Origin: Patescibacteria group bacterium
GTDB taxonomy: Bacteria; Patescibacteriota; Patescibacteriia; Patescibacteriales; UBA12465
Reading direction: 5' to 3'
Length of the DNA: 64,000 bases
Assembly: GCA_041650715.1 (NCBI GenBank)
Contig: JBAZKQ010000001.1
Span: forward strand, 262,945 to 326,944
Position numbers and translations under genes: made by a program. Positions 328 through 30,500 of this stretch are shown piece after piece (the first letter of the stretch is position 1; each line of letters starts with the position of its first letter). A model generated the notes under the pieces. The model did no database searches. It saw only the letters and a program-made list of their open reading frames with translations, and was not told the DNA's origin.

Positions 328-935
328 TGGTGAGACATATAACGACGGCGGAAAAACAAATAAATTTAGCCGGAAAAAACATTAGTTATATTTTAAAAAT
401 AAACCCTAACGCCAAACATCTTCGTTTGGCGGTTTATGTTAATGGCGAATTAGTCGTTACTCAGCCGCGCTTTGTGTCGGCGAAAGTTGTAGAAAATTTT
501 ATTTTAAGCCAAGCGGAGTGGATTTTAAAAAAAATTAACAAATCAAACGGCAGTGAACTGGGCCTCTTAAATCGTTTAACGCGGCGCGACTATTTACGCG
601 ACCGGGCCGCCGCCCGGGAATTAATTAGCGCTCGTCTTAAGTACTATAATAGTATTTACCATTACGACTATGCCCGGCTTACTATTCGCAATCAAAAAAC
701 ACGCTGGGGGAGTTGTTCCAAACAGGGAAACCTGAGTTTTAATTTTCGTCTATTTTATTTACCGGCGCGTCTTCGGGATTACGTCATTGTCCATGAGCTC
801 TGCCATCTTAAAGAGTTTAACCATTCTGCTGAGTTCTGGCGCTTAGTGGCGAAGACTGTGCCGAATTTTAAGAATTTACGAAAAGAACTGCGGTCAAATC
901 TGAATGGGGCGGAGGCGGACGATACCCTCAATTAG
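327..935 (+). CDS. YgjP-like (DUF45/M48-like) metal-dependent hydrolase
   Basis: ORF track. TRWGSCS...YVIVHELCHLKEFNHS carries the HExxH zinc motif typical of the YgjP/DUF45 family. Confidence 0.85.
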   Translation: MVRHITTAEKQINLAGKNISYILKINPNAKHLRLAVYVNGELVVTQPRFVSAKVVENFILSQAEWILKKINKSNGSELGLLNRLTRRDYLRDRAAARELISARLKYYNSIYHYDYARLTIRNQKTRWGSCSKQGNLSFNFRLFYLPARLRDYVIVHELCHLKEFNHSAEFWRLVAKTVPNFKNLRKELRSNLNGAEADDTLN

Positions 936-950
936 ACGATATCCTCAATT

Positions 951-979
951 AAAAAAGGGGAATTGCAGCGCAACTCCCC
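951..979 (-). terminator. intrinsic terminator of the ORF-less minus-strand unit
   Basis: The minus strand reads GGGGAGUUGC-GCU-GCAAUUCCCC (one G-U pair) followed by UUUUUU (plus-strand A-run 951-956). Confidence 0.6.
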
Positions 980-1254
980 AGTAATCCCCTAAGGTCAAAA
1001 GAACACCATAGCCGCGTCAAGGTTCCGGTGCCCCGTCAAGCTGGAATTTGCCGTTTTTTTGTCGGTAAGAAGGGCCGACAAGGAATTCCCTATCGTCTCA
1101 GAGTCCATTTCAGGCTGGCAGCCTTGTTCAGACTCTAAAGGTTAAAGTTATGGCTGAGTAGTCATTAACTTAACCCGGGCTTCGATAAGCCTTCCAAACG
1201 GATTTTCCGCTTTGCGCGGGTTTTTCCCGCATATATTTTGCAATAATCTGTCAG
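951..1254 (-). ncRNA. candidate structured non-coding RNA (~300 nt), class unknown
   Basis: It is bounded by a TTGACA-17-TATTAT promoter and a strong terminator. It is visibly GC-richer than the flanking spacers and has many local helices. No ORF of 60 aa or more occurs on either strand. Confidence 0.45.
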
Positions 1255-1260
1255 AGTCTA

Positions 1261-1289
1261 ATAATACCATTATTATTATTCATTGTCAA
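1261..1289 (-). promoter_or_regulatory. sigma70-type promoter for the ORF-less unit
   Basis: On the minus strand, TTGACA (1289-1284), a 17-nt spacer, then TATTAT (1266-1261). Confidence 0.5.
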
Positions 1290-1354
1290 GAGATGATATT
1301 AGCCTCAAGTTATTCTGTCTCGTTTCGTATTAATTAGCGAGTCCTGGATAATTT

Positions 1355-14823: not shown

Positions 14824-14844
14824 GATATCTAACTTCTGTTAAAA

Positions 14845-14877
14845 TAAAAAAGATCCGCTCCGAAGCGGGTCTTTTTT
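14845..14877. terminator. bidirectional intrinsic terminator between convergent genes
   Basis: A-run, GATCCGC-TCCGAA-GCGGGTC, then T6. Confidence 0.65.
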
Positions 14878-14906
14878 AAATAAATTTCATGATTGCTCGG
14901 ACCTGG

Positions 14907-17149: not shown

Positions 17150-17176
17150 GTTCTAAACAAAAATTATCGTTAATAC

Positions 17177-17204
17177 AAAAACACTCCCGCAAAGGAGTGT
17201 TTTT
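17177..17204. terminator. bidirectional intrinsic terminator
   Basis: A-run, ACACTCC-CGCAAA-GGAGTGT, then TTTT, between convergent genes. Confidence 0.65.
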
Positions 17205-17233
17205 GGCTATATTTCGAATTTGAATAGAGTCGA

Positions 17234-17491
17234 TTAGAATCTCTTTTCCAGAGGACGGGCTTCGTTGACGACAACGGTGCGACCGTCTAATTCTTGGTTG
17301 TTATACATAGCGATAGCGCTATCGGCATCGCCATCATTTTCCATTTCGACGAAACCAAAGCCCTTAGAGCGATGAGTCATACGATCGGTAATGATAACAG
17401 CAGATAAAACGGCACCAGCTTTAGCGAAAGCATCCGCTAAACCTTGTTCGGTCGTCTTGAATGACAAGCCGCCGACAAATAACTTTTTCAT
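17234..17491 (-). CDS. RRM (RNP-1/RNP-2) RNA-binding protein
   Basis: KLFVGGLSF (RNP-2) and KGFGFVEM (RNP-1). Confidence 0.9.
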   Translation of the reverse strand: MKKLFVGGLSFKTTEQGLADAFAKAGAVLSAVIITDRMTHRSKGFGFVEMENDGDADSAIAMYNNQELDGRTVVVNEARPLEKRF

Positions 17492-17542
17492 TTTGTTTTC
17501 TTTTTACAAATTTTAATAAACGTAAGACGACCTTTTTTTGAA

Positions 17543-17565
17543 GAAAAAGCGGATTTTGGTCCGCT
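17543..17565 (-). promoter_or_regulatory. terminator-like hairpin inside the RRM-gene 5' leader
   Basis: On the minus strand, AGCGGA-CCAAAA-UCCGCU followed by UUUUU. It lies ~23 nt downstream of the predicted TSS and ~50 nt upstream of the ATG. Confidence 0.35.
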
Positions 17566-17594
17566 CTTACTTTTAAAATAGCTTACCTTTATTC

Positions 17595-17623
17595 AGTATA
17601 GCCTGTTTTCAATAATAAGTCAA
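17595..17623 (-). promoter_or_regulatory. sigma70-type promoter of the RRM gene
   Basis: On the minus strand, TTGACT (17623-17618), 17 nt, then TATACT (17600-17595). Confidence 0.5.
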
Positions 17624-17637
17624 GGGGTATATTTATA

Positions 17638-17667
17638 CAAAAAAACGGCGATTAAACCGTTTTTTTG
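17638..17667 (-). terminator. terminator after rplA
   Basis: AAAAACGG-N8-CCGTTTTT hairpin flanked by A and T runs, 16 nt past the rplA stop. Confidence 0.5.
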
Positions 17668-17682
17668 ATATATATTCTTTTT

Positions 17683-29676: not shown

Positions 29677-30120
29677 TTATTTTTTAACGATTTTTTTGGT
29701 GACTTTTTTTGTGGCTTTCTTGGTAGCTTTTTGGGCAACTTTTTTAGCCAATCCCTTTTTTGAAGCACGAGCCGTTTTGGCCACTTCTTTTCTGGCCGCG
29801 GCCGCCTTGGCAACCACCTTGAGTTCTTCACGCTTGGTTTCAGTTAAAGGTAAGACGTTAACGATCTTGGTTGATTTAAGGGTATTATTGAATTTTAGTA
29901 ATTTTCGCGTTGTGAATTTTACAAAACCGCCCTGAAGAGCGAATAAAGTATCATCGCCGCCAATACCGACGTTTAAACCAGGATGATATTTAGTACCACG
30001 TTGTCTAATAATGATGGCGCCGGTTTTGGCCCATTGTCCGTCCGTCAATTTAACGCCTAAACGTTTACTTTCTGACTCGCGGCCTAAGGAGGTTGACCCA
30101 GCGGCTTTCTTATGTGCCAT
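29677..30120 (-). CDS. rpmA: 50S ribosomal protein L27 with a ~50-aa Lys/Ala-rich C-terminal extension
   Basis: [24 protein letters not shown]...[13 protein letters not shown] is canonical L27. The tail reads ...[27 protein letters not shown]. Confidence 0.9.
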
Positions 30121-30167
30121 ATTGATTGTTCTACACAGAAAATGCTAGCCAGAAGACTAGCAATCAA
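30121..30167 (-). promoter_or_regulatory. rpmA leader helix abutting the start codon
   Basis: In the minus-strand RNA, UUGAUUG (30167-30161) pairs with CAAUCAA (30128-22) one nt before the AUG. This helix encloses the hairpin UGCUAG-N8-CUAGCA. Confidence 0.35.
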
Positions 30168-30191
30168 AGGTATTTTATGATTAATGGTATT

Positions 30192-30220
30192 AATATAACA
30201 AAGGGACGATAAATTGTCAA
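30192..30220 (-). promoter_or_regulatory. sigma70-type promoter of rpmA
   Basis: On the minus strand, TTGACA (30220-30215), 17 nt, then TATATT (30197-30192). Confidence 0.5.
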
Positions 30221-30269
30221 ATATCTCACTATGGTGAGCCAAAACAAGGGTTTTAATATTTATTAATTA

Positions 30270-30278
30270 TGCTATAAT
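30270..30278 (+). promoter_or_regulatory. extended -10 promoter of the ferredoxin operon
   Basis: TGcTATAAT lies ~39 nt upstream of ATG 30317. Confidence 0.4.
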
Positions 30279-30316
30279 AATAACATAAAAATTAAGAAAA
30301 AATTAATAAAAAAAAT

Positions 30317-30490
30317 ATGGTAAAAGTGGACCAAGAAAAGTGCATCGGTTGTGGTATGTGCTCCGGCATGTGCCCGGAAACCTTTGTTATGGGGGCGAGC
30401 GGCAAGGCGGAAGTAATTAAACCGGAGGTAACGGACTGCGCTAAAAATGCCGCCGAGAATTGCCCCGTTGAAGCAATCAGTGTTAATTAA
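30317..30490 (+). CDS. small single-cluster [4Fe-4S]/[3Fe-4S] ferredoxin (57 aa, absent from the ORF track)
   Basis: My hand translation is MVKVDQEKCIGCGMCSGMCPETFVMGASGKAEVIKPEVTDCAKNAAENCPVEAISVN. The CxxCxxCxxxCP...C...CP layout matches Thermotoga/Pyrococcus-type ferredoxins. Confidence 0.8.
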   Translation: MVKVDQEKCIGCGMCSGMCPETFVMGASGKAEVIKPEVTDCAKNAAENCPVEAISVN

Positions 30491-30500
30491 TCAATAATCT

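What the first reader, a model, noticed from the sequence alone, without database searches (positions are those of the whole stretch)
951..1289. Orphan ~300-nt GC-rich, ORF-less transcription unit between the ygjP-like gene and sodB
The minus strand carries TTGACA (1289-1284), 17 nt, then TATTAT (1266-1261). About 300 nt follow that are visibly GC-richer than the AT-rich flanks. The unit ends in a strong hairpin GGGGAGUUGC-GCU-GCAAUUCCCC plus U6 (979-951). No ORF of 60 aa or more occurs on either strand, and the longest minus-strand ATG ORF I found is ~37 codons. There are many local helices: GCGGG-AAAAA-CCCGC, GGCUU-AUCG-AAGCC, UUGUCGG-N9-CCGACAA and AGGCU-GCC-AGCCU. GACUCUGA occurs twice, near the 5' end and mid-molecule, and both copies are complementary to a single AGAGUC, so these pairings are mutually exclusive. 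CUUGACG(G/C)GG also occurs twice. I could not recognise RNase P (no GGAAAGUCCGG), tmRNA (no GGGG...CCACCA acceptor or tag ORF), SRP (no GGAA-capped helix 8) or 6S features, so the class is unresolved.
Basis: partly seen in the sequence, partly recalled or inferred. Interest (0 to 1): 0.6.

Follow-up and report, generated by a model that had tools for sequence, protein, structure and literature searches.

The report
New structured RNA gene beside sodB
A roughly 300-base stretch between two genes of an uncultured Patescibacteria (Falkowbacteria-like) bacterium looks like a stand-alone gene for a folded, non-protein-coding RNA that matches no catalogued RNA family; related genomes keep its fold while changing its sequence, but what it does is unknown.

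Summary
The minus strand of 951-1289 has a near-consensus promoter (TTGACA, 17 nt, TGgTATTAT), about 300 nt with no conserved ORF, and a 10-bp hairpin followed by U6. The unit is GC-richer than other spacers and folds better than shuffles (z -4.1).

No Rfam family matches at E<=10, either here or in five homologues. ARAGORN finds nothing, and the RNase P, tmRNA and SRP signatures are absent.

I found the same unit at the same place (ygjP-like | unit | sodB) in 11 other distinct loci of a Falkowbacteria-like subclade. It is missing as a clean ~400-nt indel in at least six close relatives.

The sequences diverge too fast for blastn, but they share one architecture. An A-rich leader is followed by a three-way-junction domain closed by a purine:pyrimidine helix (P1/P1b) with a bulged A, then a second variable domain closed by P2, then the terminator.

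- P1/P1b: 89% of cells paired and 11 of 13 pairs with compensatory changes (0/500 shuffles).
- P2: 97% paired and 5 of 7 pairs compensatory.
- Window versus its nearest relative: 11 compensatory changes and 0 broken pairs in 35.

Verdict: a real, previously undescribed, lineage-restricted structured ncRNA gene. Its function is unknown; my best guess is a trans-acting RNA. Expression is untested, and the window copy's family membership rests on one bridging relative.

The parts
1284..1289 (-). -35 hexamer TTGACA
   Evidence: Found by the promoter scan. It is invariant, within CTATTGACAA, in all homologous loci.
1261..1269 (-). Extended -10, TGgTATTAT
   Evidence: Found by the promoter scan. It is conserved as TG(G/C/A)TA(N)(N)AT in 12 loci.
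1231..1257 (-). Predicted transcription start (about 1257-1251, not mapped), variable 5' leader and A-rich tract CAAAAUAUAU (1240-1231)
   Evidence: The start is inferred from its distance to the -10 element. The A-rich tract AAAAUAU precedes P1 in all groups.
1216..1230 (-). Hairpin GCGGG-AAAAA-CCCGC, apparently a tandem duplicate of the P1 5' strand (compare GCGGAAAAUCCG at 1210-1199)
   Evidence: Read directly from the sequence. It is absent from L002, which shows a 25-nt gap here. The covariance models mis-align to it.
1198..1212 (-). P1a/P1c/P1b 5' strand, AAGC-GGAA-aau-CCGU
   Evidence: It pairs with 1054-1038 in the MFE structure. It corresponds to GGG-AGAAA..CCGA in the other groups. 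Compared with L002 it shows compensatory changes.
1080..1195 (-). Long arm of domain 1. Helix GGAAGG-CUUAUCG (1195-1183) pairs with CGAUAGG-gaauu-CCUU (1095-1080) and encloses hairpins 1175-1140 and 1136-1100.
   Evidence: Present in the MFE structure. The arm helix has 5 compensatory changes versus L002.
1059..1081 (-). Hairpin UUGUCGG-N9-CCGACAA, the second arm of the domain-1 junction
   Evidence: Two compensatory changes versus L002, which has UUAUCAG/CUGAUAA.
1038..1054 (-). P1b/P1c/bulged A/P1a 3' strand, ACGG-caaa-UUCC-A-GCUU
   Evidence: It corresponds to the family block UCGGUAAAUUCUUUACCC. The bulged A is conserved in every sequence.
1000..1034 (-). Domain 2 in minimal form. P2 is GGGGCACC (1034-1027) paired with GGUGUUCU (1007-1000). 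It encloses a small hairpin whose loop GAACCUUGACG (within 1026-1012) corresponds to the family's conserved loop (A/C)CUCCGA.
   Evidence: Shown by the MFE structure and the P2 table over 11 sequences: 97% paired, 5 of 7 pairs with compensatory changes.
951..979 (-). Intrinsic terminator: 10-bp stem, 3-nt loop, U6
   Evidence: Found by the terminator scan. A hairpin plus U-run is present in every homologue, with a different stem sequence in each.

Best explanation
Positions 951-~1254 (minus strand) are a stand-alone gene for a structured non-coding RNA of about 300 nt. It belongs to a previously undescribed family restricted to a subclade of Falkowbacteria-like Patescibacteria.

**Transcription (inferred from sequence).** The RNA is transcribed from its own strong sigma-70-type promoter, divergently from sodB. 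It ends at an intrinsic terminator just short of the convergent ygjP-like gene.

**Fold (supported by covariation).**
- An A-rich leader comes first.
- Domain 1 is a three-way junction. It is closed by a long purine:pyrimidine helix (P1a, a bulged A, P1c, an internal loop, then P1b).
- A short A-rich joiner follows.
- Domain 2 is closed by helix P2. Its interior ranges from about 20 nt (window) to about 230 nt (L176) and presents a conserved C/U-rich hairpin loop.

**Function (inferred, low certainty).** The RNA has no downstream gene to control, no conserved ORF, and no significant complementarity to the sodB start region. I therefore think it most likely acts in trans as a stable RNA that binds a protein or another cellular partner, using the conserved junction, the loop and the recurrent GCCA(A) motifs. 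It is an accessory function rather than an essential one, because close relatives lack the gene at this locus.
For: **Transcription signals.**
- The promoter matches 11/12 plus TG, and the terminator has 10 bp plus U6.
- Both are conserved in position in 12 loci while the body diverges.

**Structure.**
- The fold gives z -4.1 on the minus strand.
- Independent MFE folds of six very divergent homologues give the same two-domain plan.
- RNAalifold recovers P1 with 4 of 8 pairs compensatory.
- On a covariance-model alignment of 10 sequences, P1/P1b is 89.2% paired with 11 of 13 pairs changed on both sides. That is 0 of 500 shuffles, and slid controls reach at most 65% paired and at most 3 such pairs.
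- P2 is 97% paired with 5 of 7 pairs compensatory, and 3 of 1000 shuffles reach this.
- Window versus L002: of 35 pairs, 22 are unchanged, 2 changed on one side, 11 compensatory and 0 broken.

**Homology.**
- A covariance model built from groups B and C finds the L002 unit over the expected span (19.3 bits; E 0.028 in 57 kb, 0.43 in 854 kb).

**Not coding.**
- ORFs differ in length and frame between near relatives, and L007 has none of 15 codons or more.

**Not a known family.**
- Rfam gives nothing and ARAGORN finds no gene.
- No RNase P, tmRNA or SRP signature is conserved.

**Not cis-regulatory.**
- The next gene downstream is convergent.

**No sodB antisense pairing.**
- Duplex z-scores run from -1.8 to +1.5 in 8 genomes.
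- Genes here lack Shine-Dalgarno sequences (3 of 51), so the C-rich loop is not an anti-SD seed.
Against: - There are no expression data, so promoter, transcription start and terminator are all predictions.
- The family is small, with 11-12 distinct sequences in three subgroups that are related to one another. Shuffle tests therefore overstate significance.
- The alignment used for one search was fitted to the structure. The helix alignments were made by hand with pairing in mind.
- The covariance models did not recover the window's own copy in the right register (6-7 bits). Its membership rests on direct alignment to L002 (75% mean column identity), synteny, the promoter and block-by-block correspondence.
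- The gene is absent from relatives whose SodB is up to 88% identical to that of unit-carrying L004. This could mean it is dispensable, or even neutral.
- The trans-acting, protein-binding mechanism is a guess with no direct evidence.
Confidence: 0.7

Rival explanations
1. It is a cis-acting, riboswitch-like sensor. The folded domains would bind a ligand and set the efficiency of the terminator. Read-through transcripts would then run antisense into the convergent ygjP-like/dNK/radical-SAM genes and lower their expression.
For: The layout of a structured junction domain, a U-rich linker and an intrinsic terminator resembles an aptamer plus expression platform. In groups B and C a second hairpin plus U-run follows within about 50 nt on the same strand, as if read-through needed a backstop.
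Against: No conserved alternative (antiterminator) pairing between P2 or the linker and the terminator could be found by inspection. Domain 2 next to the terminator is the most variable part, at 21-226 nt. No downstream sense gene exists. No riboswitch family matches.
Confidence: 0.08
2. It is a highly diverged copy of a universal housekeeping RNA (RNase P RNA, 6S RNA, SRP RNA or tmRNA) that Rfam models miss. This is known to happen for RNase P RNA in CPR bacteria.
For: Lui et al. 2021 (PMC8172020) had to lower RF00010 thresholds to about 5 bits to find RNase P RNA in 10 of 35 circular CPR genomes. The size (240-470 nt), the strong promoter and the multi-domain fold are compatible with such an RNA. 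None of these RNAs was found elsewhere in the 64-kb window.
Against: - No RNase P, 6S, SRP or tmRNA match appears at E<=10 (roughly 12 bits or more) in six members.
- The RNase P CR-I/CR-V (P4) consensus is absent from all 12 sequences. tRNA-like ends are also absent, and no SRP domain-IV motif is conserved among them. ARAGORN is negative.
- The 5' and 3' ends do not pair into a P1 or closing stem. Instead two consecutive domains are each closed locally.
- The gene is missing as a clean indel in close relatives. That is unexpected for an essential RNA unless it moved elsewhere.
Confidence: 0.04
3. It encodes a small basic protein or leader peptide. A short ORF (MGEK.../MREKP...) starts right after the A-rich tract, which resembles the SD-less start contexts of this genome.
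For: An AUG or UUG follows the A-rich tract in most members, and the first 4-5 codons are similar. Genes here start after A/T-rich leaders without Shine-Dalgarno sequences.
Against: ORF length runs from 9 to 64 codons and there is no similarity beyond the conserved nucleotides. L087 (9 codons) and L169 (27 codons) differ by a stop-codon change despite near-identical DNA. Indels between relatives are not multiples of three. L002 and L175 lack a standard start codon there. The same nucleotides form the covarying P1 helix.
Confidence: 0.03
4. It is a non-functional or selfish insertion: a decaying remnant or hitch-hiking sequence with a fortuitous promoter and terminator, kept in some lineages and lost in others.
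For: Presence is patchy: absent in L003, L088, L089, L090, L137 and L177, present in their relatives. Sequence turnover is very fast, so blastn fails. Size varies from 240 to 470 nt.
Against: Compensatory substitutions maintain at least three long-range helices across all subgroups. Promoter and terminator are retained in every copy. There are no flanking repeats at the indel boundaries, no second copy in ~0.85 Mb of related loci or in the window, and no relatives in viral contigs.
Confidence: 0.1

Closest known systems
Orphan large structured bacterial ncRNAs found in GC-rich intergenic regions of AT-rich genomes (for example raiA, ROOL and OLE motif RNAs, from the Breaker/Weinberg GC-IGR searches)
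   Same: It is a stand-alone gene with its own promoter and terminator and a multi-stem, junction-containing fold supported by covariation. It has no ORF, is GC-richer than the surrounding spacers, and its function is unknown.
   Different: No sequence or structure match to any of them (Rfam 15, E<=10). It is smaller than OLE or ROOL. Its distribution is much narrower (one CPR subclade) and patchy even within it. The interior of domain 2 is unusually variable.
Bacterial RNase P RNA, including the diverged CPR forms of Lui et al. 2021 (PMC8172020)
   Same: Similar size range, a modular fold with dispensable or expandable helices, occurrence in CPR genomes, and escape from standard Rfam thresholds.
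   Different: The CR-I/CR-V (P4) consensus is absent and no 5'/3' P1 stem forms. RF00010/RF00011 give no hit even at E<=10. The gene is missing from close relatives at this locus.
6S RNA / Ms1-type RNA polymerase-binding RNAs
   Same: A strongly promoted, non-essential, stand-alone RNA of a few hundred nucleotides whose sequence evolves fast while its structure is kept.
   Different: The consensus is two consecutive branched domains, not a single rod with a central bubble. There is no Rfam 6S match.
Iron/oxidative-stress sRNAs that control sodB (RyhB, FsrA)
   Same: A small non-coding gene functionally connected with sodB in other bacteria. Here the RNA gene is physically adjacent to sodB and divergent from it.
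   Different: Those sRNAs are about 90 nt, act by antisense pairing at the sodB start and are not sodB neighbours. Here there is no significant complementarity to the sodB start region in 8 genomes, and relatives keep sodB without the RNA.

Membership tests
Bacterial RNase P RNA (Rfam RF00010/RF00011) | Scores against the family covariance model | tested here: not met
   No RNase P match at E<=10 for the window unit or for the L002, L004, L006, L176 and L168 units.
Bacterial RNase P RNA (Rfam RF00010/RF00011) | Universally conserved CR-I (GNAANNUCNGNG) and CR-V (ACANAA...GGCUUA) forming the P4 pseudoknot | tested here: not met
   A regex scan of all 12 units gives no CR-I and no CR-V. GGCUUA occurs only in the window and L176 and is not conserved.
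Bacterial RNase P RNA (Rfam RF00010/RF00011) | Essential, so present in every genome of a clade | tested here: inconclusive
   It is absent from this locus in L003, L088, L089, L090, L137 and L177. Only 3.6-10 kb of each of those genomes could be searched, so a copy elsewhere cannot be excluded.
6S RNA | A single long irregular hairpin with paired 5'/3' ends and a large central bubble, and a match to RF00013 or related models | tested here: not met
   The consensus is two locally closed branched domains, and there is no Rfam hit.
tmRNA | A tRNA-like domain (5' GGGG..., 3' ...CCACCA) and a tag reading frame | tested here: not met
   ARAGORN finds no tRNA or tmRNA in the window, and no such ends occur in any unit.
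SRP RNA (4.5S or large bacterial SRP) | A domain IV hairpin with a GNAR tetraloop and the conserved AGCA symmetric loop | tested here: not met
   No conserved motif: sporadic matches in 3 of 12 units at non-homologous positions. There is no Rfam SRP hit.
Riboswitch / cis-regulatory leader | Lies in the 5' UTR of a regulated gene on the same strand | tested here: not met
   The terminator is followed by the 3' end of the convergent ygjP-like gene, and no sense ORF lies downstream.
Riboswitch / cis-regulatory leader | A conserved alternative pairing between the aptamer and the terminator (an expression platform) | tested here: inconclusive
   None was seen by inspection of 12 sequences. No formal search was made.
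Small protein gene | An ORF conserved in frame, length and sequence among relatives | tested here: not met
   ORFs run from 9 to 64 codons and are not alignable. They are broken by a stop-codon change or a 2-nt indel between near-identical relatives, and L007 has no ORF of 15 codons or more.
Independent sigma-70 transcription unit for a structured ncRNA (the generic kind) | A promoter, an intrinsic terminator, conserved secondary structure with covariation, and no coding potential | tested here: met
   The transcript itself could not be observed with these tools.

The most novel reading that the evidence does not exclude
The RNA is the founding member of a new class of large, complex-folded RNAs specific to CPR bacteria and has a sophisticated biochemical role. 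It could be a ribozyme, or the RNA subunit of a ribonucleoprotein that replaces a protein function lost from these ~0.8-Mb genomes. In this reading the conserved three-way junction with its bulged A and the invariant hairpin loop form the active or binding core, and domain 2 is an expandable scaffold.
Probability: 0.1. Interest if true: 0.8.

Novelty: categorically new. Interest (0 to 1): 0.55.

Why it matters
CPR/Patescibacteria make up a large share of bacterial diversity. They have tiny genomes and are almost unexplored for non-coding RNA. A 240-470-nt RNA with a conserved multi-junction fold, its own strong promoter and no resemblance to any of 4227 Rfam families would be one of very few lineage-specific structured RNAs known from this radiation.

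RNAs of this size and complexity have often turned out to have unusual biochemical roles. Its presence or absence among close relatives offers a natural comparison for finding what it does.

The claim of newness is at the level of the RNA family. The general kind, an orphan promoter-RNA-terminator gene, is familiar, and the function may prove ordinary.

Tried and rejected
**Searches and models that gave nothing**
- Rfam at the gathering threshold on the whole window, and at E<=10 on the unit and five homologues, gave only noise: DapZ (on the terminator), BSR0739, CRISPR-DR19, snoRNAs.
- ARAGORN found nothing.
- blastn of four spacers against all loci matched only the sodB leader and promoter, so the RNA body is too divergent for blastn.
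- mafft-qinsi and mafft-xinsi are not installed. Plain MAFFT misregisters P1b and the inner hairpins. I therefore used a covariance-model realignment and hand alignments.
- Covariance models R1 and R2 did not recover the window's own domain 1. Its interior is about 145 nt, against about 81 in the seed sequences, and its P1a is AGC:GCU rather than GGG:CCC. They latched onto the duplicated hairpin instead.
- Other covariance-model hits were coding sequence or a terminator (L118, L134, window 14833-14891).
- Viral-contig scans with two conserved blocks gave 58 chance matches. None was confirmed by the model.
- Literature searches found no description of such an RNA.

**Functional ideas rejected**
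- Antisense regulation of sodB: no significant duplex with the sodB start region.
- Anti-Shine-Dalgarno seed in the CCUCC loop: the genome hardly uses Shine-Dalgarno sequences.
- Pairing of the conserved loop with the P1b 3' strand as a switch: not maintained in the L087-type or L004-type sequences (inspection).
- A T-loop reading of the conserved loop: it does not fit the predicted 7-nt loop register.
- A triple helix or alternative pairing of the 3' pyrimidine tract with the P1 purine strand: plausible in L004 only.
- The short 153-nt unit of L007 shares the promoter position and a purine:pyrimidine hairpin, but the model does not detect it. Its homology is left open.

Full report
**1. The observation**

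- The promoter scan ranks TTGACA (1289-1284), a 17-nt spacer, then TATTAT (1266-1261) as the best site in the first 3 kb. It matches 11 of 12 positions, with a TG one base before the -10 hexamer.
- The terminator scan finds GGGGAGTTGC-GCT-GCAATTCCCC (979-957, 10 pairs) followed by T6.
- No ORF of 60 codons or more exists on either strand. The longest ATG ORF within the predicted transcript is 37 codons.
- The unit has 47.7% GC. Coding sequence has 42.5%, other spacers 19-42%, and the AT-rich promoter region next to it 22.7%.
- The minus strand folds to -102.3 kcal/mol with z -4.13. The plus strand gives z -2.98.

**2. Not a catalogued RNA**

- Rfam 15 gives no match at gathering thresholds anywhere in the 64-kb window.
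- At E<=10 the unit gives only a terminator-driven DapZ hit and a meaningless BSR0739 hit.
- ARAGORN finds no tRNA or tmRNA.
- CPR RNase P RNAs are known to fall below Rfam thresholds (Lui et al. 2021, PMC8172020). I therefore repeated the permissive search on five homologues and found nothing relevant.
- I also scanned all family members for RNase P CR-I/CR-V, tmRNA ends and the SRP domain-IV motif. None is conserved.

**3. Context and relatives**

The SodB protein is annotated as coming from a Patescibacteria group bacterium and sits on contigs of 758-809 kb. Gene order is conserved in relatives: TGT, metallophosphatase, radical SAM, dNK, ygjP-like, [unit], sodB, His-phosphatase, a 502-aa protein, rpsB, tsf. 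The genome scan with the 502-aa protein returns mostly MAGs named Candidatus Falkowbacteria or Patescibacteria group bacterium.

| State at the ygjP-sodB spacer | Loci |
|---|---|
| Unit present: 450-700-nt spacer with a divergent promoter (CTATTGACAA-N6-AATAATAATGNTANNAT), a 240-470-nt body and a hairpin + U-run | L002, L004, L173/L174, L167, L176, L006, L168, L087, L169-172, L175 |
| Shorter 153-nt unit in the same position | L007 |
| Unit absent: 30-100-nt spacer | L003, L088, L089, L090, L137, L177 and most other Falkowbacteria loci |

L088 lacks the unit even though its SodB is 88% identical to that of unit-bearing L004. The alignment shows a clean ~400-nt indel with no flanking repeats. 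No second copy was found in ~0.85 Mb of related loci, in the window, or in viral contigs.

**4. Structure**

The bodies are too diverged for blastn but share ordered blocks:

- an A-rich tract (AAAAUAU);
- B1, GGGRRAARAA-CCGA;
- B2, UCGG-UAAAUUC-UUUCUUU-A-CCC-AAA-CGRUGYRC;
- a hairpin loop (A/C)CUCCGA;
- B3, GYRCAYC-UUUU;
- the terminator.

Single-sequence MFE folds of L006, L168, L175, L004, L167 and L176 independently give the same plan. B1 pairs with the first half of B2 (P1a, bulged A, P1c, internal loop, P1b). This closes a ~130-nt three-way junction with two hairpin arms. The second half of B2 pairs with B3 (P2) and closes a second domain. That domain's interior ranges from 21 nt (window) to 226 nt (L176).

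Evidence for each helix:

- **P1 by RNAalifold.** On nine domain-1 sequences, P1 is recovered with 4 of 8 pairs carrying compensatory changes.
- **P1/P1b by covariance model.** A model built on those sequences re-aligned ten members. 89.2% of cells are paired, and 11 of 13 pairs and 19 cells are changed on both sides. None of 500 column shuffles reaches this. Sliding the partner by 1-3 columns drops pairing to 37-65%, with at most 3 such pairs.
- **P2 by hand alignment over 11 sequences.** 97% of cells are paired, with compensatory changes in 5 of 7 pairs.

Caveats apply to all of this. The sequences are related to one another. The model alignment leans towards the structure. The hand alignments were made with pairing in mind.

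**5. Where the window copy fits**

The window and L002 (SodB 87% identical) form a divergent subgroup. MAFFT and both covariance models are misled by a window-specific hairpin, GCGGG-AAAAA-CCCGC (1230-1216). It resembles a tandem copy of the true P1 5' strand.

The correct correspondence, which is also the MFE pairing, is as follows.

| Element | Window coordinates |
|---|---|
| P1 | AAGC-GGAA-aau-CCGU (1212-1198) with ACGG-caaa-UUCC-A-GCUU (1054-1038), keeping the bulged A |
| Long arm | 1195-1080, carrying two hairpins |
| Second arm | UUGUCGG-N9-CCGACAA (1081-1059) |
| P2 | GGGGCACC (1034-1027) with GGUGUUCU (1007-1000) |
| Loop inside P2 | GAACCUUGACG |

The model built without this subgroup finds the L002 unit over exactly this span (19.3 bits; E 0.028 in 57 kb and 0.43 in 854 kb). 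That is weak but correctly placed.

Between the window and L002, 35 aligned pairs in seven helices show 22 unchanged, 2 changed on one side, 11 compensatory and 0 broken.

- GGCUU-AUCG-AAGCC is probably not native, because CUUAUCG pairs long-range and that pairing covaries.
- UUGUCGG/CCGACAA and AGAGUC/GACUCU are supported.

**6. Not coding**

A short ORF starting at the conserved AUG/UUG after the A-rich tract begins MGEK/MREKP in several members. However:

- it is 9 to 64 codons long;
- it is unalignable beyond the conserved nucleotides;
- it differs between near-identical L087 and L169 by a stop-codon change;
- it lacks a standard start codon in L002 and L175.

A 63-codon ORF shared by L087 and L175 is broken by a 2-nt deletion in L169. 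L007 has no ORF of 15 codons or more.

**7. How it probably works**

*Shown.*
- A conserved promoter and terminator bracket a covarying two-domain fold.
- There is no conserved ORF and no downstream sense gene.
- There is no significant complementarity to the sodB translation start in eight genomes (z from -1.8 to +1.5).
- The genome is virtually Shine-Dalgarno-less (3 of 51 starts), so the CCUCC-containing loop is not an anti-SD seed.
- The gene is dispensable at this locus in close relatives.

*Inferred.* It is a stable trans-acting RNA that uses its junction, the conserved loop and perhaps the over-represented GCCA(A) motifs to bind a protein or other partner. GCCA occurs 31 times against 11.5 expected, mostly where a helix strand enters a loop. 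The function is accessory.

I put about 0.7-0.8 on "real structured ncRNA gene of a new family". Any specific mechanism gets far less.

*Rivals.*
- A riboswitch-like element gating antisense read-through into ygjP (0.08).
- A neutral or selfish insertion (0.1).
- A diverged housekeeping RNA (0.04).
- A small peptide gene (0.03).

**8. Comparison with known systems, and novelty**

It works like the orphan structured ncRNAs found in GC-rich spacers of AT-rich genomes (raiA, ROOL, OLE and similar). It fails every membership test I could run for RNase P RNA, 6S, tmRNA, SRP RNA, riboswitch leaders and small proteins.

It is new at the family level, but its function may be ordinary. Its interest comes from three things:

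- CPR bacteria are nearly unexplored for ncRNA;
- the RNA is large and complex;
- its patchy distribution among close relatives offers a comparative handle.

The main weaknesses are the lack of expression data, the small and related sequence set, and the indirect placement of the window copy.

Noticed in passing
window 919-952 (+): There is a 17-nt tandem duplication, ACGATACCCTCAATTAG|ACGATATCCTCAATTAA, at the 3' end of the ygjP-like gene. The stop codon TAG (933-935) lies in the first copy. The second copy runs into the A6 that forms the RNA terminator's U-run on the other strand. In relatives the ygjP end (AATTAAAAAA(T/C)GGCC) is separated from the RNA terminator by 40-60 nt and a second hairpin.
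   Followed up: partly
window, 51 ORF starts (for example 327, 1409, 2045, 2765): Only 3 of 51 predicted gene starts have any Shine-Dalgarno-like tetramer at -21 to -4. Starts are preceded by A/T-rich sequence, so this organism appears to initiate translation without Shine-Dalgarno pairing.
   Followed up: partly
window 1290-1350 (between the two divergent promoters); L004 3850-3960; L006 3900-3960: Two boxes containing GCTAAT/TTAGC are conserved. (T)TAATATT(A/G)GCTAAT lies upstream of the RNA -35 (GGCTAATATC in the window). ATTAATTAGCA overlaps the sodB -35 (TTAGCA, 18 nt before TGTTATAAT). They could be UP elements or sites for a shared regulator of sodB and the RNA.
   Followed up: no
all family members (for example window 1154-1151 and 1119-1116; L006, L167, L176): GCCA and GCCAA are over-represented in the RNA family: 31 against 11.5 expected, and 17 against 3.2. 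They usually occur as GCC at the end of a helix strand followed by unpaired AAAG. This may be a recurring structural or protein-binding motif.
   Followed up: partly
window 17150-17682: This 533-nt spacer folds strongly (z about -3.8 on the plus strand, -4.3 on the minus). It has two long palindromic hairpins (17176-17205 and 17638-17667) and a 10/12 promoter-like site on the minus strand (17623-17595). There is no credible Rfam match at E<=10. It may hold another unannotated RNA, or it may just be bidirectional terminators.
   Followed up: partly
window 30121-30500: This 380-nt spacer has fold z about -4.4/-4.7. It carries an 11/12 promoter with TG on the minus strand (30220-30192), followed about 30 nt later by a hairpin (30162-30143). 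It is probably the promoter and leader of the minus-strand ORF 29677-30120. There is no Rfam match.
   Followed up: partly
window 14833-14891 (-): The best hit of covariance model R2 in the window (21 bits, E 0.035) is only an A-run/hairpin/U-run bidirectional terminator between convergent genes. It shows that the model's purine:pyrimidine P1 helix attracts terminator-like false positives.
   Followed up: yes
L007 720-870 (-): At the same position upstream of sodB, this locus has a much shorter (~150-nt) promoter-to-terminator unit. It has an A-rich tract and one long purine:pyrimidine hairpin (ACGGUCGAAGGAAGGG...UUUUUUCCUUCAUCCGU) and no AUG. The model does not detect it. It may be a reduced relative or an unrelated small RNA.
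   Followed up: partly
L087 and L175 units: A 63-codon ORF spans the RNA in both loci with the same start and stop positions. It is disrupted by a 2-nt deletion in the closely related L169. Gene callers also placed 45-57-codon ORFs on the unit in L002, L006 and L176. These are likely false gene calls.
   Followed up: yes
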